From NCBI RefSeq assembly GCF_050320075.1, contig NZ_CP190021.1: a stretch of DNA of 64,000 nucleotides. One strand, written 5' to 3'. A program made the position numbers and the translations under genes. Below the pieces are notes generated by a model that had not been told where the DNA came from, did no database searches, and worked only from the letters and a program-made list of their open reading frames with translations. Shown here in pieces: positions 4,713-64,000 of the stretch (position 1 is the stretch's first letter; each line of letters starts with the position of its first letter). This DNA comes from Escherichia coli. GTDB taxonomy: Bacteria; Pseudomonadota; Gammaproteobacteria; Enterobacterales; Enterobacteriaceae.

Positions 4713-5078
4713 TTTACTCCCCCGCTCCGGCGGGGGTATGGCCTGCCAGGCCGCCGGAAAACCCTGGCAGGCTTACGCCTGCCTGAAATGCAGGAGGGCC
4801 GCGCCTGCGGCGCTGCCCTTCCTGCCCGTCATGGTGTGAGGCATTTTTCTGTTATGTCGTTTCTGTTGTTCTGATTTCCGGAGGCGGGGACACCTTCGGC
4901 TCCCGGCTGCCTGGCGGCATCCGGTCGTCAGGCCCGACTCCGACAGGCAGCTGCTGGCGCACCCGCCAGTCTCCGCCGAACCCGCTGGCGCGGTTTCGGG
5001 CTGCCGCTACGGTCCGATGTCTGAAAAACCAGGCTTGCAGCGACCGTTCCGGTCGCGCCGCCCCTGTCGCGCCGGAAA

Positions 5079-5395
5079 CGGCGCTCCCTGCACACCTGAC
5101 GGTGTGTAAGGCCACTGCGCCTGATGGCGCAGTCAACCCTTCCGCCGCCACCCCTGCGGCCTGTTTCCCGCTGTGGACTTTCCGGGGGCTGGAGTAACCA
5201 CATCCCGTTTCAGCAGTCCAGGGGAAGATATACCGTCCACAAAATTTTTAGCCATAAACCCGGCAAAAAATTTTGCGTCCGCCCCCGGACAGCTGCCCCG
5301 TGACGTGGTGACGGACGCCCCATCGGAAAGGTCCACTGCGGGGAGAAACCCCGAAGAAGTGGACGGCAGAAGGGGCTTTCGCCCCTCCGGGGAGC
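5079..5395 (-). promoter_or_regulatory. conserved structured non-coding element, copy 1 (candidate single-strand promoter / ssi-type element of the transferred strand)
   Basis: About 320 bp that align at roughly 80 percent identity with 7957-8275; frameshifting indels between copies argue against coding; lies directly upstream of ORF 5441. Confidence 0.5.
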
Positions 5396-6299: not shown

Positions 6300-7238
6300 G
6301 TGAGTCAGAAGAAAACCACCACGACGCCCACGCCGCATGATGCCGCGTTCCGGTCGTTCCTGGCGAATCCCGACGTCGCCAGAGATTTTCTGGAACTGCA
6401 TCTTCCGGCGGAGTACCGGCAGTTGTGCGACCTGTCCACGCTGAAGCTGGAACCCGCCACCTTTGTTGAGCCGGACCTGCATCAGTACGCCAGCGATATC
6501 CTCTGGAGTGTGAAAACCACCGGGGGTGAAGATGGCTATGTTTATACGCTCATCGAGCACCAGAGCACCGAAAATCTGTACATGCCTTTCCGCATGTTAC
6601 GTTACAGTGTGGCGGCGATGCAGAGACATCTGGAGCAGCACAAAACGTTGCCACTGGTGATTCCTGTACTGTTCTATCATGGTGAGCGCAGCCCGTACCC
6701 GTACAGCATGAACTGGCTGGACTGTTTTGAGAATCCGGCACTTGCGGCTAAAATATACACAAAGCCGTTTCCGCTGGTTGATATCACTGTCGTTGATGAC
6801 AATGAAATCATGAACCATCGCCGGATGGCCGCACTGACGCTGCTGATGAAGCATATCCGCCATCGTGACATGATGGAGCTGCTGGACAAACTCCCGCAGG
6901 TCATGGTGGAAATTTCAGACGAGCAGGTGCGTGTTCTGATTCATTACATCGTTAACGCAGGGGACTCTGTATCACCGGAATTTATGCGGGCGCTGGCTGA
7001 GCGTCTGCCGCAGCATGAGGATAAACTGATGACTATCGCAGAACGTCTTGAGCAAAAAGGTCGCCAGGAGGGCAGGATGGAAGGACGCATGGAAGGACGC
7101 ATGGAAGGACGCATGGAAGGAGCGCTTGAAAAAGCCCTGGCTATTGCGTGCCAGCTTCAGAAAATGGGGATGACGCCGGAGCAGATTAAGCAGGCTACCG
7201 GACTTTCCGATGACGAACTGAAGAAAATCACTCACTGA
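6300..7238 (+). CDS. Rpn-family (YhgA-like, PD-(D/E)XK) recombination-promoting nuclease / putative transposase
   Basis: GTG start after AGGAGG RBS; N-terminal HDAAFRSFL..ARDFL and core motifs typical of Rpn/YhgA proteins; C-terminal tail domain after a GRME tandem repeat. Confidence 0.8.
   Translation: MSQKKTTTTPTPHDAAFRSFLANPDVARDFLELHLPAEYRQLCDLSTLKLEPATFVEPDLHQYASDILWSVKTTGGEDGYVYTLIEHQSTENLYMPFRMLRYSVAAMQRHLEQHKTLPLVIPVLFYHGERSPYPYSMNWLDCFENPALAAKIYTKPFPLVDITVVDDNEIMNHRRMAALTLLMKHIRHRDMMELLDKLPQVMVEISDEQVRVLIHYIVNAGDSVSPEFMRALAERLPQHEDKLMTIAERLEQKGRQEGRMEGRMEGRMEGRMEGALEKALAIACQLQKMGMTPEQIKQATGLSDDELKKITH
7071..7118 (+). repeat. in-frame 12-bp tandem repeat x4 (ggacgcatggaa) encoding (GRME)4 in the Rpn linker
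   Basis: Three perfect units plus one imperfect unit read directly from sequence. Confidence 0.9.
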
Positions 7239-7249
7239 GTAAACATCAC

Positions 7250-7276
7250 AGCCCGGCAAAATGCCGGGCTTTTTTG
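7250..7276 (+). terminator. Rho-independent terminator after the Rpn gene
   Basis: Hairpin agcccggc-aaaat-gccgggct followed by a T-run. Confidence 0.7.
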
Positions 7277-7299
7277 TCAGCAGGAGCAGAGCAAATAGC

Positions 7300-7458
7300 A
7301 TGACGATTGCAGAACGTCTTATTCAAAAAGGCGCACTTGAAGTGGCGCGGGAAATAGCCTGCCGGCTGCGGGATATGGGCTGGACGCCGGAACGGATTCA
7401 GGAGGCAACCGGACTTTCCGGTGAAGAACTGAAAAAGCTGTTTCCTGATGAGCAGTAG
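7300..7458 (+). CDS. free-standing Rpn C-terminal tail-like small protein (52 aa)
   Basis: MTIAERLIQKG..GWTPERIQEATGLSGEELKKL parallels the Rpn tail MTIAERLEQKG..GMTPEQIKQATGLSDDELKKI; GGAG RBS upstream. Confidence 0.6.
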   Translation: MTIAERLIQKGALEVAREIACRLRDMGWTPERIQEATGLSGEELKKLFPDEQ

Positions 7459-7842: not shown

Positions 7843-7956
7843 TTTTGCTTGTAAATGTCGTGCGGTTTTCTCTGTTTTCACCTGTGCGGGAGTGGTGTGC
7901 CAGTGACCACCACATGCCATTGTTGTGCCGTCGTTTTTCTTCAGTCGCGCCGTATG

Positions 7957-8275
7957 CGGCGCTCCCTGCACACCTTACGGTGTGTAAGGCCACTGCGCCT
8001 GATGGCGCAGCTGTCTCTGCCTGTCTGCCGCCGCACTGCGGCCTGTTCTCCGCAGACGGACTTTCCGGGGGTACATACATGACCACATCCCGTTTCAGTC
8101 GTCCAGGGGGGAGATGTACCAGCCACAAAACTTTTTGCCGCAGGCGTCAAAAACTTTTGCGTCTGCCCCCGGACAACTGCCCCGTGACGTGGTGAGCGTC
8201 CCCCGTCGGAAAGGTCCACTGCGGGGAAATCCCCGAAGACCCGGACGGCAGAAGGAGCTTCGCTCCTCCGGGAAA
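7957..8275 (-). promoter_or_regulatory. conserved structured non-coding element, copy 2
   Basis: Homologous to 5079-5395; directly upstream of ORF 8317. Confidence 0.5.
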
Positions 8276-17482: not shown

Positions 17483-17770
17483 GACAAAGTCTCCATTTCT
17501 GGAATTTAAATCAAACGGAAAGGTTAAAAATTTATTTGCAGGCGATAAGAGCTAACCAGAGGAATTAGCCGTGTGATAAAAGGATTGTTGCAGATACGAA
17601 AGTCGTTAGAATAGCTGCGGGCGCTTGAGGCTGTATGCCGAAAGCGTTTTGTGGACGGTATACAGCAGAAAGCCCCTGGAGATTTTTTTATCAATCAACC
17701 AAGGGCTCTACTGTAATGCCTAGACAACATTATAGTAGCCCGATAACCGCCGTAAGGCAATGGAGGGGCT

Positions 17771-17926
17771 ATGATGCCACAGCGAACGTTTTTAATGATG
17801 TTAATCGTCATCTGTGTGACGATTCTGTGTTTTGTCTGGATGGTGAGGGATTCGCTTTGCGGACTCCGGCTCCAGCAGGGAAACACAGTGCTTGTGGCAA
17901 CGTTAGCCTACGAAGTTAAACGTTAA
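17771..17926 (+). CDS. pndA: Hok-family type I toxin PndA (51 aa), absent from the ORF track because it is under 60 aa
   Basis: Translation MMPQRTFLMMLIVICVTILCFVWMVRDSLCGLRLQQGNTVLVATLAYEVKR has the Hok/PndA architecture (transmembrane helix plus conserved Cys); GGAGG RBS; an overlapping upstream frame (17635-17919) fits a mok/pndC-like reading frame. Confidence 0.85.
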   Translation: MMPQRTFLMMLIVICVTILCFVWMVRDSLCGLRLQQGNTVLVATLAYEVKR

Positions 17927-17966: not shown

Positions 17967-18402
17967 CGAAGGCTGACCTCATTGCGCCCTTTCTTCTTCA
18001 ATGAAGCGTATCCGGTATTGTTTCATTTCCCCTGAAGCCGATTAGCTCCAGCCGAATGCCTTTGCCATCCGGGGCCACGTTCTGCATTTCGCAGATACCA
18101 CGTCGGGTCATGAGTGTGAAGGCTGTCATTGCCAGCATGGCTAACGCATTTTCCTCGCTTCCGCTGCGTTTCTCGAGAGCATCGGCAATTTATTCTATGC
18201 TCCCCACCTGAAAGCAAGAGTCGAATTCTTTACTCCACTTTTCTGACATCGGATTTTCTCTCTGTATTTATGGGTAGTTATCGAACTGAATGTGCCAGTT
18301 TTTTCAGGAGACGGCAAAGTTGAGATGGTTGGTTCTGATTCAAAGCATGAGTTTCCCCGGTGTGACGGGCATGTCGGGCGGATTTTGAGAAACAACAGAT
18401 GT

Positions 18403-18433
18403 AAAAAAACCGACTGGTGAGGTCGGTTTTTTT
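18403..18433. terminator. bidirectional Rho-independent terminator
   Basis: A-run, hairpin aaccgac-tggtgag-gtcggtt, then T7. Confidence 0.7.
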
Positions 18434-18457
18434 ACTGTTCCGTTACAGAGTGGGTGG

Positions 18458-18489
18458 CTCTGGTCGGAAAAGAACTGTCTATAACTGAC
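18458..18489 (+). repeat. 32-bp direct repeat, copy 1 (ctctggtcggaaaagaactgtctataactgac)
   Basis: Matches 18646-18677 at 31 of 32 positions. Confidence 0.9.
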
Positions 18490-20421: not shown

Positions 20422-20485
20422 ACAATGCCTCCCCTCGTACTATCTATTATTTTAATGCCGATGGGGAGGTTGTGCAATATTTATA

Positions 20486-22717
20486 TTATCCTTTTATTCC
20501 GTCCTTGTCGTCACTTCCTTTATCTTTAAGACGATCTGTTTTCATTCCAGGAGTATGTCGGATATTGCGACTTCCTCCAATAAATATTTCTTTAACAGAA
20601 TTTGCCATGCTGCCAAGAGTGTTGGCTCCCTCACGCCCACCAAGGAAATTAATAACATGATCAGGTAGGTAGGCCTGAAGGGCAAATATGGCAGCTACAG
20701 AGGTTGTACAAATTCTGGCGTATATCAGCAAGAAACCAGCAAGACTGAAAATACCGGTCAGCGAATTGAACTGTACGTTAACCAGGGCAGCGCCAAATAA
20801 TGCATTCAGTATTGTGCCTACGGCGATGATGGCAACAGAAGCAAAGAAAAAACCAAAGACCATGATGGGCGGCCTTATCATACTATCAATTAAGTATATA
20901 TAACCGTAGGCTGCCCGACTTCCTCTATCTTCTGATGTTCCGAGATGTGTTGCAGCCCACAGAGGTCCGGCGGTACATCCTATTAATACACTGACTATCC
21001 AGTTCCCAATGCCTGTCATCCAGAAAATGAATGGTATAAATGGTAGGTAAATTGATAAGGAAAAACCCGCACAAAACAACAGGAACAACAAGAAATATAT
21101 TGGGGGAGCTGCAGCATCCAGCAGAGCAACTAATCCTTTAGGTAATCCAGAGAATAAATTGGCAACCTTTCCGAAAATAGAGTTATCACCTACTGTCGCG
21201 AGAACTCTAACTGTTGTATATCCACTCCAGAGAATCTCTGTTGTTCCTAATGTATAATCACCAATATTTTTCATCTTTATCAATGGATTGACCTGATCGC
21301 TTGTTGTTCCTGTGCCACTTATCTCTGTTGCTATCCAGTTGGTTCGATAGACAAAGAAGCTCATCATTTCAGATAAGGCAGACTTAGGATCTTGCGCATT
21401 GGCCATTCGTTGCTCATTGGCTGATGTAACAGTGCCCAGAGGTGGTGTATAGGTGGTGTTCTGTAATTGAGTCTTGTAGGCACTCATGACTGCACTGAAT
21501 AAGTCAGTATCACCAACTTCTCCCAGTGATGACATTGAAGTTACAGCTGGAGCTCTGTCAGCCAGCTCGGCCAGACGCTGGTTAGCAGTGGCAAAGGTCT
21601 GATACCATGCGCCAAGCGTTACCCACCCGTAGGTTGTGAGATAAGATTTAAGAGCCTCTTTTCTGGATTGCTCTCCGTTATCAGTGGGTAGCGATTTTTG
21701 TACAGCACGTTCATACTCGTCGGCTGCTCTCTGAATCCGTGTCTCGATATCCGGCAATGTTCCGTTGCCAGAATTTCTTTTTTCCAGAAATGTTGTCACA
21801 AACTCACTGGCAGCGTTGTCCATGTCGCTAATCATATTATCCATGGCTGCACGTTGTGCTGAGATAACACCGCTGTATTCGTTTTTACTGAAGGGATTAA
21901 AGAATTTTCCAATCGTCGATTGATCTGTTGTTCCGTTTCCTTCTACTGACAGGCTGGCTGAACCACAGATACCGCTGCCATTGGATACCGTGACAGTGTA
22001 ATTACCACTGGCGGTTTTAGCTGATTCTGTCATCAGTGAAGTCGAGGATTTGGCCGTCTGATTAAAATCATTTAGTCCTGCGTTAACCGCATACTTACAC
22101 AGTTCCATTTCAAAAATGCCACGCGCTGCTGTTTGTGTGGATGCCTGAACTGGCTGTACAGTCATTGAATAACCATTTGCGATATTATCAGCGGCAAGTT
22201 GCACCATCACATTGGCGGACCCAACCCCCATTATCGATGCGCCCCATAACATAATGAGCTGAGCGATACTCCAGCCATTTCCGGTTGGAACGATCATCAG
22301 AAAACCTGCAACGACACTCAGTGTGCCGACGATATCGCGTCCGGTGCTGAATACCTGTCCCTGATGCCCCGAACGCACAACATGACGGATACCAATGAAC
22401 ATAAACCAGACAACGGCAAGTACGGCGATGATACTGTTGAACGCCCCGAACATGCTTCCGATCAGAGTGGGGGCGCTGGTTGACAGTGGATTGGTGACTA
22501 CATCACCGAATATCGTGACCAGCGCCTGGCGAGACAGATCGTCAGGATTGGTTGCGGCAGACACAATATCCTGATAGGTCACTGAAGCCATTGCCGGCAG
22601 TGAGGATATAGCAAGGCCTGCACAGAGTGCGCGAAGTAAAATTTTCACAGTAACTCCGGAATAGAATTGCGTATGGGCAAAGGCCACACAGGATTTAATT
22701 AAGGGGGATGGCGACAT
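20486..22717 (-). CDS. traY: TraY polytopic inner-membrane protein (DotA-like) of the type IVB secretion system
   Basis: 743 aa with many transmembrane segments; synteny and size. Confidence 0.8.
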   Translation of the reverse strand: MSPSPLIKSCVAFAHTQFYSGVTVKILLRALCAGLAISSLPAMASVTYQDIVSAATNPDDLSRQALVTIFGDVVTNPLSTSAPTLIGSMFGAFNSIIAVLAVVWFMFIGIRHVVRSGHQGQVFSTGRDIVGTLSVVAGFLMIVPTGNGWSIAQLIMLWGASIMGVGSANVMVQLAADNIANGYSMTVQPVQASTQTAARGIFEMELCKYAVNAGLNDFNQTAKSSTSLMTESAKTASGNYTVTVSNGSGICGSASLSVEGNGTTDQSTIGKFFNPFSKNEYSGVISAQRAAMDNMISDMDNAASEFVTTFLEKRNSGNGTLPDIETRIQRAADEYERAVQKSLPTDNGEQSRKEALKSYLTTYGWVTLGAWYQTFATANQRLAELADRAPAVTSMSSLGEVGDTDLFSAVMSAYKTQLQNTTYTPPLGTVTSANEQRMANAQDPKSALSEMMSFFVYRTNWIATEISGTGTTSDQVNPLIKMKNIGDYTLGTTEILWSGYTTVRVLATVGDNSIFGKVANLFSGLPKGLVALLDAAAPPIYFLLFLLFCAGFSLSIYLPFIPFIFWMTGIGNWIVSVLIGCTAGPLWAATHLGTSEDRGSRAAYGYIYLIDSMIRPPIMVFGFFFASVAIIAVGTILNALFGAALVNVQFNSLTGIFSLAGFLLIYARICTTSVAAIFALQAYLPDHVINFLGGREGANTLGSMANSVKEIFIGGSRNIRHTPGMKTDRLKDKGSDDKDGIKG

Positions 22718-38759: not shown

Positions 38760-39050
38760 TTAATCGAGGCCAGTCCAGTCTCGTGGTGATTCCGTATGGT
38801 GGCGATACCACCATGGACGACCGGAGGCGATGGCCCCTCTCAGAATGCTGAAAATGCGTGTACAGATAGTCCTGACAGTCCAGCCTGAACGGTCGAGAAT
38901 AACGAAAAATAAAATGATGCCGGTGCAAATCCAGAAGGTTGTTTTGGAGGGAAAGGGGCATATAAACAGATAAATCATGGTGAACGGCAGAGGTACGCCC
39001 TGGATGTTGACTGGCGGTGTTGCATATCGCCAGAAACCTTCTCTTTTCAT
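38760..39050 (-). CDS. traK: TraK small membrane protein (IcmT-like, 96 aa)
   Basis: 96 aa with transmembrane helix, ATGA-type overlap with traJ stop; alternate frame to the spurious N-extension of nuc. Confidence 0.6.
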   Translation of the reverse strand: MKREGFWRYATPPVNIQGVPLPFTMIYLFICPFPSKTTFWICTGIILFFVILDRSGWTVRTICTRIFSILRGAIASGRPWWYRHHTESPRDWTGLD

Positions 39051-41465: not shown

Positions 41466-41671
41466 AATAATTCCTGAGCAGTTAAATCAGAATGGGATAT
41501 ACCGGTGCTCCGGTACAGACAGGATGATGTTTGTTTCCGGCTATACTTGCGTTACCGGAAATAAATGCCAGTGTGGCCAGGTAAATAGCCTCATAGTTTA
41601 CTGAAGGTGATTATTCCTGATACTGGCTGGTTGATGTGTCGTCAGACATAAAACGAATATGAGCGTAATCT

Positions 41672-41798
41672 TTAACGCTCCGCGCCGAATCGATCCATGA
41701 TGGATGACTCGACGATTTATGAATCGAACGTACCGGCGCTTGTCCCTGAAACAGTTCCCGGCCCTCGTCCGGATAACCTGCAATTCAGACAGGCACAT
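41672..41798 (-). promoter_or_regulatory. bipartite conserved leader element, copy A, upstream of traH
   Basis: Box 1 ttaacgctccgcgccgaatcgatccatgatgg and box 2 ctgcaattcagacaggcacat recur at 62169-62292 and 63231-63361. Confidence 0.5.
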
Positions 41799-41859
41799 GT
41801 GCCCGTACACTCTTGTATCTTACTGAGTATATCAGAATTTATGTAAATTCAAATATCCT

Positions 41860-61629: not shown

Positions 61630-62184
61630 CTATGGGATGTTTACAAGGCGCTCCATAAAGCCGTGATGTTCGGCATTTGATACCAGTTCCAGGAGCAGGG
61701 ATATCCTCGACTCAGGCTGGAGAGTATTTTCCATTCTGAGGAGATACTGATATTGTGCTTTTGTCAGCCATATGCTGGAAGCCGCATTCAGCTCTTCCCT
61801 GGCTCCCGGATTTAGCACAGGGTCCGGGTAAATCTTCATTAATCCATCAACAATATCTTTATTGACGGGTTTTATTTCACCGCCAAACTTCACGAAATCA
61901 ATGAAGGCGCTATGTCGACGTAATGCTGATACTGGGTGAATGTCAAAATTAGCCAGAATAAAAAAGTACCCTGGAAAAATAGCGAATATTCTTTCACGGT
62001 AACAGCACCTGGAGTCTGCCCGTCTTATCTTTCTTGTTATTAATGGAGTCCATGGTACGACGTTTTGCTCATTCAGCCATGAGAATAAAGATTCTCTGTT
62101 TTTGCCGGCTGTATTATATTGCGCAAGATACCAGTTCCGGTTATTCAGGTGTTCTATATTCACGAAGTTCAACGCTCCGCGCAA
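61630..62184 (-). CDS. traB: NusG/RfaH-family specialised transcription antiterminator (TraB/ActX-like)
   Basis: NusG N-terminal-like NWYLAQYN..PGYFFILANFD..FVKFGGE; the track start is a TTG, and a GTG at 62163 with a GGAG RBS is a more likely start. Confidence 0.75.
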   Translation of the reverse strand: MRGALNFVNIEHLNNRNWYLAQYNTAGKNRESLFSWLNEQNVVPWTPLITRKIRRADSRCCYRERIFAIFPGYFFILANFDIHPVSALRRHSAFIDFVKFGGEIKPVNKDIVDGLMKIYPDPVLNPGAREELNAASSIWLTKAQYQYLLRMENTLQPESRISLLLELVSNAEHHGFMERLVNIP

Positions 62185-62292
62185 AACCGATCCATGATGG
62201 ACGATTTTGCGATGTCAGGCGAATATGCTAAATCATATGTCTGAAGCAGTGTCCAGCCCATATCTGGATAAACTGCAGTTCTGACAGGCATA
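62169..62292 (-). promoter_or_regulatory. bipartite conserved leader element, copy B, at the traB start
   Basis: Box 1 tcaacgctccgcgcaaaaccgatccatgatgg, box 2 ctgcagttctgacaggcatat. Confidence 0.5.
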
Positions 62293-62604
62293 TAACCAGC
62301 AGACTCTAGTACGTTCTGTATCGGTGATTTGGCGAACTCACAGATAAAGAACGGCTAAGCACTAATATCAGCAATACAGTGGCACAGTATTGTGATACGC
62401 GAAATAAAACATCAGCACGTCAGTTCAGAGTAAGGTCGCCATATATCGGGCATGAGCCAGATACAAATAACTGGGACACCGTCTGAAGTGATTTGCTTTA
62501 TTAAAGTAACTTGTGCTTGGTGTTTATGTTTATCAATTTGGGATCGCCTGTAAAGTGCAAAATGCAATTTCCATGAAAGTGTCCCCTTTAATGGGGACAC
62601 CTGT

Positions 62605-62892
62605 TCACATTTTTTCGTTTTCTTTAGCTGTATTGCTAATCATGAAAACGAAAGTTCGCATCAGCACAGCAGAGCGAAGTGCATCATATCCTTCCAGATT
62701 TAAATTCTTCAGGCTTCGCTTCAGGTAGGTTCGTACCGTTTCGGGAGAAAGCCGACAGTTCTGAGCAATGGCGTCGTAAGGAACACCCATTGCGTAAAAA
62801 ACGCAGACTTTAAGCTGGTTTGTTGATAGCTCGGGAAACATGCCTTCCAACAGAGTGATGGCCGGGAGTTTCTGTATCAGTTGAGGTGACAT
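62605..62892 (-). CDS. traA: LuxR/FixJ-type HTH transcriptional regulator (TraA-like)
   Basis: C-terminal HTH pattern LSTNQLKVCVFYAMGVPYDAIAQNCRLSPETVRTYLKRSLKNL; ATG 62892 with GGAG RBS preferred over the TTG at 62913. Confidence 0.6.
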   Translation of the reverse strand: MSPQLIQKLPAITLLEGMFPELSTNQLKVCVFYAMGVPYDAIAQNCRLSPETVRTYLKRSLKNLNLEGYDALRSAVLMRTFVFMISNTAKENEKM

Positions 62893-63230
62893 AGCAAAGG
62901 TCTCCGATGACAACTAAAAACGCTATCACCGAGTTCCTACGCTCATTGGTGATAGCCCAGACGGGGGTAGGAATACCGGCGTCATCGGAAACCGGCCAGG
63001 CTAATGCCTGCCCCGCCTGAGCTACCATAGATGACGACAAGAAATACAAGTTCCTGTCTTTATGGTATGGCAAAAAACGACGCCAAATGAAGAAATTAAC
63101 TTCTGCGCCGACGATGACTACGCGGGTTCCTACGCCCGATCACAGTTTTGCCTGTGACCAGTAAAGGGTACTTAGTATAACGCACCGAGTCAACTAACAG
63201 CTTAAAAAACATACAAAAAAGCGTCAAAAC

Positions 63231-63361
63231 TTAACGCTCCGCGCCGAAGCGATCCAGGCATGATGCTTCTGCTTTGTGGCGTTCGAACATGCTGGTCCAT
63301 ATGCACGAAACGGTGTCTGACCCTCGTCCAGACAATCCGCAGTTCTGACGAACATATGAAC
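63231..63361 (-). promoter_or_regulatory. bipartite conserved leader element, copy C, upstream of traA
   Basis: Box 1 ttaacgctccgcgccgaagcgatcca, box 2 ccgcagttctgacgaacatat. Confidence 0.5.
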
Positions 63362-63884
63362 AAATATGCTCTTGTAGAGGCTGTTGTTACACAATTGGCG
63401 GGTTGTGTAACAAATGGTTTTATCATCTAAGAATCATTCTATTTACGATCGAATGATCTACAAAATGATTTTTTAAAGGTTATTTAGATCGTTTAATTGC
63501 ATTAAAACAGAATATTATTCTGTTAGGTAGATCGGTTGTAAGATAAATGATCGTGAGTAGGATAAAAGTCGATCTTTTAATCCAAAAGAAAGATCTAAAG
63601 CAGAAAAATCTGCTTTTAAAAATAGATTTTATTTTTTTGACGCAGGTCAAGATTAACTTATTAGAGGTATCAGTGAGGAGGCACTGGAAGAGAAGAGATC
63701 GTTGTAATGCTTTTCAAATTAACGTAAAGCGGGTATATTTCGGCTGTTATTAGCTGTGCAGAGGGTGGCACTCTGTGGAGCAAAGCGGCGAAAGCCGGAC
63801 GGCAGAATGCGCCATAAGGCATTCAGGAGAGATGGCATGTACGGGCAGTAAGTCAGAAGACTGAAGATGTTCCGGAAGCCATAA

Positions 63885-63950
63885 AAGGAAAACCCCCACT
63901 ATCTTTCTTACGAACTTGGCGGAACGACGAAAGATAGTGGGGGCCTCACA
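63885..63950 (-). ncRNA. candidate antisense Inc RNA of an IncI/IncB-type replicon, complementary to the repZ-leader stem-loop I; rep genes would lie beyond the window end
   Basis: + strand stem cccccactatcttt / aaagatagtggggg (63893-63943) with a 23-nt loop containing TTGGCG, the recalled target-loop motif of ColIb-P9-type copy control. Confidence 0.4.
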
Positions 63951-64000
63951 GAATACGGGTAAAGTATAATGAAACCGTACCAGAGATTCAACCCTGTGCA

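What the first reader, a model, noticed from the sequence alone, without database searches (positions are those of the whole stretch)
41672..41798. Bipartite conserved element repeated three times in tra leader regions, with an ops-like motif, on a plasmid that encodes a NusG/RfaH paralog
The same two-box element occurs upstream of traH (41672-41798), at the start of traB (62169-62292) and upstream of traA (63231-63361). On the coding (-) strand, box 1 reads ...GGCGCGGAGCGTTAA, which resembles the RfaH recruitment element ops (GGCGGTAGCGTG) with one inserted base. The window also encodes a NusG/RfaH-like protein (61630-62184). These repeats may be recruitment sites that let a plasmid-specific antiterminator drive the long tra and pil operons.
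Basis: partly seen in the sequence, partly recalled or inferred. Interest (0 to 1): 0.6.

Follow-up and report, generated by a model that had tools for sequence, protein, structure and literature searches.

The report
Structured tra leaders with ops-like box
An IncI1 resistance plasmid has three copies of a ~140-base folded leader ending in a 12-base motif one base short of the RfaH recruitment signal, and this motif is the likely, still untested, loading site for the plasmid's own RfaH-like factor TraB.

Summary
Three copies of a ~140-nt element lie on the tra-coding (-) strand at 41674-41816, 62171-62310 and 63233-63375. All three end in the identical 12-mer GCGCGGAGCGTT.

It has an 88-nt rod (P1), a 30-nt hairpin (P2) whose 3' arm runs into the 12-mer, and then the box. 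Both helices are supported by compensatory changes, and the tra strand is the one that folds.

The box equals ops G2-T11 with T6 deleted (GCGG-AGCGT). It sits just 5' of every TraB-family gene I examined: IncK/Z, Pectobacterium, Enterobacter, Citrobacter, Leclercia, Lelliottia, Klebsiella and Serratia plasmids. It is conserved regardless of reading frame. A diverged Salmonella plasmid keeps the same three-copy layout.

For the traH copy, a conserved extended -10 promoter places the element at the start of the transcript.

My best reading is a composite pause-hairpin plus non-template-DNA recruitment site for the RfaH-like TraB. It resembles IncX PrfaH sites and Bacteroides opsX. In IncI1 it was triplicated to link the traA, traB-pil and traH-tra operons.

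This is inferred, not shown. No Rfam family matches the element, and the papers I could search do not describe it. The role of the rod and of TraC is unknown.

The parts
41674..41816 (-). Copy 1 (traH/tra-operon leader): ACAAGAG, P1 rod, linker, P2 hairpin, box
   Evidence: CM hit at 147.9 bits. Alignments A1, A2 and A4. An ortholog sits in the same position in L018 at 20484-20618.
41826..41852 (-). Predicted sigma-70 promoter of copy 1: TTGAAT (41852-41847), 15-nt spacer, extended -10 TGaTATACT (41834-41826). The TSS is expected at about 41820-41817, just 5' of ACAAGAG.
   Evidence: Read from the sequence. The same layout, TTGAAT-15-TGaTATAAT, is conserved in the ~76%-identical plasmid L018. 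The consensus scanner missed it because the spacer is 15 nt. No TSS data were available.
41726..41812 (-). P1 rod of copy 1: long irregular hairpin from GAG to UUC with apical loop ACGAGGG
   Evidence: RNAalifold on the MAFFT-only alignment A4. Pair counts: 90% paired against 28-41% when slid, and 19 pairs with changes on both sides.
41683..41714 (-). P2 hairpin of copy 1 (candidate pause hairpin). Its 3' arm includes G1-G3 of the box.
   Evidence: At one pair the three window copies read U-A, C-G and G-C (read).
41674..41685 (-). Box GCGCGGAGCGTT of copy 1 (ops-like: ops G2-T11 minus T6)
   Evidence: Exact 12-mer. DNA hairpin CGC-GGA-GCG, -1.9 kcal/mol.
41661..41680 (-). Weak terminator-like hairpin GAGCGT..ACGCTC just after the copy 1 box (lineage-specific, doubtful)
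   Evidence: and the MFE fold. Not conserved in L018.
62171..62310 (-). Copy 2 (traB leader): P1 62221-62306, P2 62181-62210, box 62171-62182. The box ends 7 nt before the GTG start of traB.
   Evidence: CM hit at 135.6 bits. Same position relative to the TraB start in 13 other plasmid lineages.
63233..63375 (-). Copy 3 (upstream of the Hft/C4-like RNA and traA): P1 63285-63371, P2 63243-63272, box 63233-63244
   Evidence: CM hit at 140.7 bits. At least 95% identical in about 1440 IncI1 plasmids. Ortholog in L018 at 38894-39028.
63218..63240 (-). Terminator-like hairpin plus T-run immediately after the copy 3 box
   Evidence: and the fold. Not recognisably conserved in L018.
61630..62163 (-). 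traB, RfaH-family NusG paralog (the presumed trans factor)
   Evidence: Pfam NusG. NCBIfam RfaH model aligned over positions 1-151 of 159, but below its cutoff. Best PDB match is 9ik0, named 'RfaH', E 6e-12, and E. coli RfaH aligns over the full length only weakly. TraB is a positive regulator of pil transcription and is essential for transfer (PMC5013300, PMC4288162).
60693..61376 (-). traC (DUF2913-like), always next to traB and essential for transfer; role unknown
   Evidence: No Pfam hit. AF2 model pLDDT 86. Only generic alpha/beta fold matches or DUF2913 relatives.
62605..62892 (-). traA, small sigma-70 region 4 / LuxR-type HTH regulator that boosts traB expression
   Evidence: Pfam Sigma70_r4_2 and GerE. 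Function from PMC5801416.
41007..41465 (-). traH, first gene of the long tra operon downstream of copy 1
   Evidence: ORF list. Orthologs in L001 and L018 are annotated DotD/TraH lipoprotein.

Best explanation
Each copy is a transcribed 5' leader module that loads the plasmid's RfaH-like factor TraB onto RNA polymerase.

Proposed steps:
1. The nascent RNA folds into a long 5' rod (P1) and then a hairpin (P2).
2. The foot of P2 lies 10-12 nt upstream of the second U of GCGCGGAGCGUU. RNA polymerase is proposed to pause there, as in a hairpin-assisted (type-1) pause; G at -10 and a pyrimidine at -1 fit the elemental pause consensus.
3. In the paused complex the non-template DNA copy of the box, an ops core lacking T6, forms a small CGC-GGA-GCG hairpin. 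TraB recognises this hairpin and host RfaH does not.
4. TraB-modified polymerase then reads through pause and termination signals in the long downstream operons. It may also help translate traB, which lacks a good Shine-Dalgarno sequence.

The ancestral arrangement is one site in traB's own leader, giving autoregulation as for IncX PrfaH. The IncI1 lineage copied the module to the head of the traH-tra operon and upstream of the traA regulatory region, which ties three transcription units to TraB.

Shown here: the repeats, their structure and covariation, their linkage to TraB genes, and the promoter position for copy 1. Inferred: transcription start sites for copies 2 and 3, pausing, TraB binding and antitermination.
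For: - Repeat significance.
- The box is conserved 5' of TraB genes whose products are 65%, 53%, 52%, 50% and 27% identical to the window's TraB. The surrounding leader diverges in these plasmids.
- The box is read in three different frames, or none, so selection acts on nucleotides.
- Serratia has GGCGGAGCCTG, which is the ops consensus GGCGGTAGnnTG minus T6.
- No canonical ops occurs in the window.
- The box forms a predicted DNA mini-hairpin comparable to ops and to the PrfaH site.
- P1 and P2 covariation. MAFFT-only alignments give 90% and 96% paired against 26-41% when slid, with 19 and 11 pairs changed on both sides against 0-7. The CM-based alignment gives 85.7% against ~36%.
- G-U pairs number 47 against 17 A-C, so the tra-sense strand is the one that folds.
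- The three-copy layout is conserved in a ~76%-identical plasmid.
- The copy 1 promoter is conserved.
- Precedents. PrfaH binds a non-template hairpin in its own 5' UTR (PMC11880322). UpxY opsX sites combine pause hairpins with non-template DNA hairpins (PMC11685472).
- TraB is needed for pil transcription and for transfer (PMC5013300).
Against: - I found no TSS, pause, binding or read-through data for these sites.
- RfaH residues that contact ops (K10, H20, R23, R73) align to T, W, E and S in TraB. The alignment is weak.
- The box may act as RNA rather than DNA. In the Enterobacter clade it lies inside a covarying helix that abuts the traB start codon.
- P2-to-pause spacing is about 14 nt in that clade, longer than the canonical spacing.
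- The 88-nt rod and its conserved loops have no role in this model.
- The terminator-like hairpins after copies 1 and 3 are not conserved in L018.
- Most relatives have only the traB copy, so extra sites are not required for a working I-type transfer system.
Confidence: 0.55

Rival explanations
1. The whole element, including the box, acts as RNA. It would be a cis-regulatory leader bound by a protein (TraC, the TraB C-terminal domain, or an Hfq/ProQ-type chaperone with an sRNA). It would control mRNA stability, translation initiation of traB, or antitermination in the manner of LoaP leader hairpins or put/EAR RNAs, with no need for recognition of non-template DNA.
For: - Strong covariation for P1 and P2.
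- Conserved, clade-specific apical loops ACGAGGG and CUUAAGUG.
- In the Enterobacter clade, a helix UUGAAC/GUUCAA with two covarying pairs encloses P2 and the box and abuts the traB AUG.
- Poidevin et al. mention hfq effects on traA and traBC expression as data not shown.
- TraC is an essential co-factor of unknown function.
Against: - The box itself shows no covarying partner. The linker:box helix has 0 compensatory pairs and one pair is broken in 8 of 14 sequences.
- Its similarity to ops, especially in Serratia, and its fixed association with an RfaH-family gene point to the known DNA-reading mode of this protein family.
- TraC has no recognisable RNA-binding fold.
Confidence: 0.22
2. Copies 1 and 3 are inert relics of segmental duplications of the traB promoter-leader region, kept only because they supply a promoter. 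Only the traB copy matters.
For: Most related plasmid lineages have a single copy at traB. The duplicated copies still carry the remnant mini-ORF MDRFGAER from the traB 5' region.
Against: All three copies are retained at the same positions in a plasmid ~76% identical. The box is nearly invariant there (one substitution, T12 to C, in the traH copy) and helices are kept through compensatory changes, for example GAAGC/GCUUC against GAGG/CCUC in P2 of copy 3. Copy 3 is at least 95% identical in about 1440 plasmids.
Confidence: 0.08
3. The conserved 3' part encodes a leader peptide (MDRF[G/C]AER). Its translation would regulate downstream expression, either by coupling to the traB start (the stop TGA overlaps TTG in copy 2) or by ribosome-mediated attenuation at the terminator-like hairpins.
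For: The ORF has an ATG in 5 of 6 IncI-type copies. The stop codon falls right after the box in 5 of 6 IncI-type copies (not the L018 traH copy). Variation is concentrated at third codon positions.
Against: - The start codon is CTG in window copy 3 and absent in L017.
- The frame is shifted in IncK and different in Klebsiella L004.
- In the Enterobacter clade the ORF runs in frame into TraB.
- GCG GAG CGT show no synonymous variation across lineages whose TraB is only 50% identical.
- The 'synonymous' changes covary with the 5' arm of P2.
- The ATG has no Shine-Dalgarno sequence and sits in the P2 apex.
Confidence: 0.05
4. The box or the helices are double-stranded DNA operators for TraA or another regulator, or single-stranded DNA structures used during conjugative DNA processing.
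For: TraA is an HTH protein that activates traB through sequences upstream of traB. CGCGGAGCG is partly palindromic. G-T wobbles are also tolerated in ssDNA.
Against: - Helix arms differ among the three copies in one plasmid, so they cannot be a common operator.
- Covariation with a G-U excess on the sense strand indicates single-strand folding.
- The box lies about 135 nt downstream of the predicted start of copy 1.
- The element tracks traB, not oriT or the leading region.
- IncK/Z plasmids keep the element yet no traA is annotated in the IncK2/Z example.
Confidence: 0.05

Closest known systems
RfaH and its ops element (JUMPStart leaders of LPS, capsule, hemolysin and F tra operons)
   Same: The factor is from the same protein family. 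A 12-nt G/C-rich element lies on the non-template strand in the 5' leader of very long operons. The core GCGG-AGCGT matches ops G2-T11. The predicted mini-hairpin has a GC stem and a GG-initiated loop that ends 3 nt before the putative pause.
   Different: T6, a base-specific contact of RfaH (established knowledge, Zuber 2018, cited in PMC11880322), is missing. G1 and G12 differ. There is no Rfam JUMPstart hit. ops is a hairpin-less type-2 pause, whereas here a conserved RNA hairpin abuts the box. RfaH's ops-contact residues are not kept in TraB.
PrfaH (ActX family) and its ops-like site in IncX plasmids (PMC11880322)
   Same: A plasmid-encoded RfaH paralog essential for conjugation. Its site is a non-template-strand stem-loop (CGG-GGTCAT-CCG) in the paralog's own 5' UTR, a few tens of nt before the start codon, at the head of the T4SS operon. 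PDB entry 9ik0, most likely the PrfaH structure, is TraB's best PDB match.
   Different: The sequence is unrelated: TCGGGGTYATCCGAG. No large structured leader was reported for IncX. IncX has one site, whereas IncI1 has three. That site is experimentally proven and this one is not.
Bacteroides UpxY and opsX sites (PMC11685472)
   Same: Recruitment sites in operon leaders directly upstream of the NusG-paralog gene. They combine a nascent-RNA pause hairpin with a non-template DNA hairpin that has a GC stem. Several cognate sites occur per genome.
   Different: Different phylum and a different paralog clade. Each opsX is specific to its own UpxY, whereas here three identical boxes serve one factor. 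No UpxZ-like inhibitor is evident. The additional 88-nt 5' rod has no counterpart.
LoaP leader hairpins and the factor-independent antiterminator RNAs put (HK022) and EAR
   Same: Structured leader RNA with two stem-loops upstream of long operons. LoaP is a NusG paralog that needs leader RNA elements and promotes read-through of intrinsic terminators.
   Different: There is no sequence or Rfam similarity. These comparisons rest on my own knowledge and on abstracts and were not tested here.

Membership tests
RfaH ops / JUMPStart | 12-nt consensus GGCGGTAGnnTG on the non-template strand | tested here: not met
   No exact match in the window or in five related loci. The box is GCGCGGAGCGTT, 9 of 10 to ops G2-T11 with T6 deleted. 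No Rfam JUMPstart hit even at E<=10.
RfaH ops / JUMPStart | Lies in the transcribed 5' leader of a long operon | tested here: inconclusive
   Copy 1: a conserved TTGAAT-15-TGnTATAMT promoter places the TSS about 5 nt before the element. Copies 2 and 3: only weak promoter-like sequences. No experimental TSS was found.
RfaH ops / JUMPStart | Pauses RNA polymerase and recruits the factor through a non-template DNA hairpin | not testable with these tools
   Only compatibility could be checked. G at -10 and U at -1 hold if the pause is at U12. The predicted DNA hairpin CGC-GGA-GCG has -1.9 kcal/mol.
Recruitment site of a specialised NusG paralog (PrfaH or opsX type) | Conserved site immediately upstream of, and co-inherited with, the paralog gene | tested here: met
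   The box lies 5-7 nt (54 nt in Serratia) before the TraB start in the window, L001-L005, L008 and L011-L019. IncX1 has the PrfaH-type sequence in the same place.
Recruitment site of a specialised NusG paralog (opsX type) | Nascent-RNA pause hairpin ending about 11 nt before the pause | tested here: inconclusive
   P2 is supported by covariation. It ends at -10 to -12 relative to U12 in IncI copies and about -14 in the Enterobacter clade. The pause itself was not observed.
Intrinsic-terminator attenuator or riboswitch | Conserved terminator with a mutually exclusive antiterminator helix | tested here: not met
   Terminator-like hairpins follow copies 1 and 3 in the window but not in L018, and not copy 2. 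The candidate antiterminator (linker:box) has no compensatory pairs and is often broken.
Leader peptide | Start codon, frame and stop conserved among homologs | tested here: not met
   CTG in copy 3, no ATG in L017, frame shifted in IncK, a different frame in L004, and read-through into TraB in the Enterobacter clade.
Any Rfam 15 family | Score at or above the gathering threshold | tested here: not met
   No family hits the element.

The most novel reading that the evidence does not exclude
The ~140-nt leader may be a two-part guide for a TraB/TraC antitermination system. The RNA rod and hairpin, with their clade-specific loops, would be bound by TraC (DUF2913) or by the TraB C-terminal domain. 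The T6-less ops box would be read as non-template DNA. Conjugation in I-complex plasmids would then be switched on by an RNA-plus-DNA-guided NusG paralog. The three IncI1 copies, together with the C4-like antisense RNA in Hft, would form the feedback circuit behind 'superspreader' mutants.
Probability: 0.2. Interest if true: 0.75.

Novelty: new member of a known kind. Interest (0 to 1): 0.58.

Why it matters
IncI1 and related I-complex plasmids are major carriers of ESBL and AmpC genes. It has been known since 1993 that TraB and TraC are needed to express their transfer genes, but I found no cis target described.

A defined 12-nt box with an adjoining hairpin, present at three operon heads, makes the question directly testable by point mutants, EMSA, in vitro pausing and ChIP. 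It would add a proteobacterial, hairpin-assisted example to the short list of known NusG-paralog recruitment signals. The single-base deletion relative to ops also suggests how a plasmid factor could be kept insulated from host RfaH.

It further places the unexplained Hft 'high-frequency transfer' region in a concrete circuit: leader, then C4-like RNA, then traA, then traB.

Tried and rejected
- **Attenuator model.** I considered a terminator/antiterminator switch in which linker AYGUUC pairs with GAGCGU. The helix has no covariation and the terminators are not conserved in L018, so I rejected it.
- **Leader peptide MDRFGAER.** Start, frame and stop are not conserved among homologs.
- **Box as the traB Shine-Dalgarno sequence.** GGAG lies 11-13 nt from the start codon, and copies 1 and 3 have no start codon behind the box.
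- **Rfam.** Gathering and E-value scans find nothing on the element.
- **Genome contigs pattern scan.** It returned only 7 loci, two of them chance hits in unrelated phyla. The element is confined to Enterobacterales plasmids.
- **TSS evidence in the literature.** Kim 1993 is not held. The supplements of the Salmonella transcriptome paper list pSLT, not pCol1B9, tra genes. Two literature searches were uninformative.
- **C4-like RNA targeting the element.** By eye I saw only a 6/7 match in one copy, and it is not conserved.
- **Extra copies in relatives.** The CM and a box search with up to 2 mismatches find none upstream of traH in L001-L004.

Full report
**What the window is.** The segment is an IncI1 plasmid backbone. 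The traA-traB region and both flanking element regions are 100% identical to many IncI1 plasmids, including ColIb-P9, NC_002122. The shufflon repeats and the repZ pseudoknot are also present. All tra and pil genes lie on the - strand.

**Observation.**
- The repeat finder groups 41671-41716, 62168-62213 and 63230-63275 into one family.
- The aligned copies have 75-80% mean column identity.
- A covariance model built from them finds exactly three matches in the window, at E 1e-32 to 1e-35. With filters off, nothing else scores above 11 bits.
- The 12-mer GCGCGGAGCGTT occurs three times exactly, against 0.21 expected with one mismatch allowed.
- Conservation continues 5' to a shared ACAAGAG/ACTAGAG. 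The units are therefore 41674-41816, 62171-62310 and 63233-63375.

**Anatomy.** I made sequence-only (MAFFT) alignments of the IncI-type copies (A4) and of an Enterobacter/Citrobacter/Leclercia/Lelliottia/Pectobacterium clade (A6). RNAalifold gives the same architecture for both.
- P1 is a long irregular rod. It runs from the GAG of ACAAGAG to the UUC of a conserved GUUCGA, about 88 nt.
- The P1 apical loop is conserved within each clade: ACGAGGG in IncI and IncK, CUUAAGUG in the other clade.
- A short linker follows.
- P2 is a hairpin of about 30 nt with the apex AUCCA-UCA-UGGAU.
- The box follows P2 directly. In the IncI copies the 3' arm of P2 pairs through G1-G3 of the box.

Pair counts support the structure.

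| Alignment | Cells paired | Paired when 3' partners slid | Pairs changed on both sides | Same when slid |
|---|---|---|---|---|
| A4 (MAFFT only) | 90% | 28-41% | 19 | 3-7 |
| A6 (MAFFT only) | 96% | 26-37% | 11 | 0-4 |
| A3 (CM-fitted, 14 distinct sequences) | 85.7% | ~36% | 20 | 4-10 |

In each case the structure was derived from the same alignment, which inflates the paired fraction, so the compensatory counts carry more weight. G-U pairs outnumber A-C by 47 to 17. The tra-sense strand is therefore the one that folds.

**Is it in a leader?** For copy 1, TTGAAT-15-TGaTATACT (41852-41826) ends 9 nt before ACAAGAG. The ~76%-identical Salmonella plasmid pSA20083530.1 has TTGAAT-15-TGaTATAAT at the same distance. 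This is a good extended -10 promoter, and it puts the element at the very 5' end of the traH transcript. For copies 2 and 3 I see only weak promoter-like hexamers inside a variable inverted repeat with a conserved CCGCCAA centre. That fits published evidence that traB expression needs upstream sequences and is boosted by TraA. I found no TSS data.

**Distribution.** TraB homologs occur on thousands of plasmids. The element, or at least P2 plus the box, lies directly 5' of the TraB start in every lineage I opened:
- IncK2/Z, L001 (tCGCGGAGCGTT)
- Pectobacterium, L002
- Enterobacter, L003 (GCGCGaAGCGTT)
- nine further Enterobacter, Citrobacter, Leclercia and Lelliottia plasmids
- Klebsiella sp., L004 (exact box, although the CM missed it)
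- a Serratia MPF_I plasmid whose TraB is only 27% identical. It keeps CATCCAGCATGGGATCGATTTTG-GCGGAGCCTG.

Those lineages have a single copy. The window and the diverged Salmonella plasmid L018 both have three, at the traA, traB and traH positions. The triplication is therefore old and has been maintained. A genome-wide pattern scan found the motif only in Enterobacterales.

**The box.** It aligns to ops G2-T11 (GCGGTAGCGT) as GCGG-AGCGT. The Serratia version GGCGGAGCCTG is the ops consensus GGCGGTAGnnTG minus T6.

As DNA it can form CGC-GGA-GCG (-1.9 kcal/mol). That is comparable with ops (GC-GGTA-GC) and with the proven PrfaH site (CGG-GGTCAT-CCG). The box has no covarying partner in the RNA.

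It is conserved although it is read as A-E-R-stop in IncI copies, as R-G-A-F in Klebsiella, out of frame in IncK, and as part of an N-terminal extension of TraB in the Enterobacter clade. Selection is therefore on the nucleotides, in one orientation. There is no canonical ops in the window, and no Rfam family hits the element.

**The protein.** TraB has an NGN domain. It aligns over its full length to RfaH models but below the family cutoffs. Its best solved relative is 9ik0, a plasmid 'RfaH' that is most likely the IncX3 PrfaH structure. The residues RfaH uses to read ops are not conserved in the (weak) alignment, as expected if the target differs. TraB is required for pil transcription and for transfer. 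TraB and TraC are the essential regulators in pESBL and in IncB/O/K/Z plasmids.

**Mechanism proposed.** I read the element as a composite recruitment site. The 3' foot of P2 lies 10-12 nt from U12 of the box, which is the geometry of hairpin-assisted pauses. With U12 at -1, G3 falls at -10, matching the elemental pause consensus. The mini-hairpin would occupy -11 to -3, as in ops.

This mirrors the Bacteroides opsX sites, where pause hairpins and non-template hairpins together recruit UpxY. It also mirrors PrfaH, whose site lies in its own 5' UTR. The missing T6 would insulate the plasmid regulon from host RfaH; this is an inference from the published RfaH-ops structure.

In IncI1 the three sites would couple traA, traB-traC-pil and traH-tra to TraB, with positive feedback through copies 2 and 3. 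In the window, terminator-like hairpins follow copies 1 and 3. They are not conserved in L018, so I do not rely on them.

**What this does not explain.** The 88-nt rod and its conserved loops have no role in this model. In the Enterobacter clade an extra covarying helix encloses P2 and the box next to the traB start codon. An RNA-level function, such as protein binding, translation control or stability, is therefore a serious rival or an additional layer. TraC, the obvious candidate partner, is a DUF2913-like protein with no informative fold match.

**Comparison and novelty.** The element works like known NusG-paralog recruitment sites but fails the sequence definition of ops. It is closest in logic to PrfaH sites and in architecture to opsX. 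In the literature I could search, TraB is only presumed to be an antiterminator and no target site is given. I rate it a new member of a known kind, with an unexplained structured RNA component.

Noticed in passing
window 62893-63184 (-): C4 RNA 62945-63032, a1b1 63119-63171, a2/b2 about 62893-62940: The traA leader contains a P1/P7-type C4 antisense-RNA module. Rfam C4 scores 77.5 bits, and c4-a1b1 scores 32.9 bits (below its gathering score). By eye, the repeats GCGTAGGAAC and GTCATCG occur again just 5' of the traA ATG, overlapping its GGAG. They are complementary to UUCCUAC and CGAUGAC in the C4 loops. By my mapping of the published pESBL coordinates, this interval corresponds to the 'Hft' region, where transposon insertions raise traA about 50-fold and transfer about 20-fold (PMC4288162, PMC5801416). 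Loss of C4-like repression of traA translation would explain that phenotype. The papers I could search do not make this link.
   Followed up: partly
window 63384-63413 and about 62316-62340 (-); L001, L002, L005, L013-L016, L018: An inverted repeat with variable arms but a conserved centre (C)CGCCAA(T/A) lies 8-25 nt upstream of ACAAGAG in the traA and traB copies and in most relatives. In copy 1 the same position is the spacer of a sigma-70 promoter. It could be an RNA hairpin, an operator for the LuxR/sigma-r4-like TraA, or a matter of promoter geometry. I did not resolve this.
   Followed up: partly
window 5066-5351 and 7944-8234: Two copies, about 290 nt each and 87-94% identical, of a G+C-rich element with internal palindromes lie in the leading region (repeat finder D3, D5, D6, D7, D19). 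They are probably Frpo/ssi-type single-strand promoter elements.
   Followed up: no
window 63400-63700: An AT-rich tract dense in GATC sites and short 'aaagatc' repeats lies between the repZ control region (PK-repZ at 63885-64000, + strand) and the traA leader.
   Followed up: no
window 62570-62600 (-): A strong hairpin GGTGTCCCC-ATTAAA-GGGGACAC followed by TTT lies just after the traA stop codon. It may terminate traA transcripts, which would imply that traB needs its own promoter.
   Followed up: no
window 17619-17776 (+) and 18401-18488 (-): Rfam finds a sok antitoxin RNA (134 bits) and an AgrB-like antisense RNA (53.7 bits). These are hok/sok- or pnd-type post-segregational killing loci in the leading region.
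   Followed up: no
window 7029-7436: A pair of direct repeats of about 109 nt with a 211-271 nt offset (D1, D18) begins with ATGACNATYGCAGAACGTCTT. They may be tandem paralogous small ORFs.
   Followed up: no
L019 250-440 (Serratia proteamaculans plasmid): A plasmid whose TraB is only 27% identical keeps a long rod, a P2-like hairpin and GGCGGAGCCTG 54 nt before its NusG paralog. The module therefore appears to be ancient in MPF_I plasmids.
   Followed up: partly
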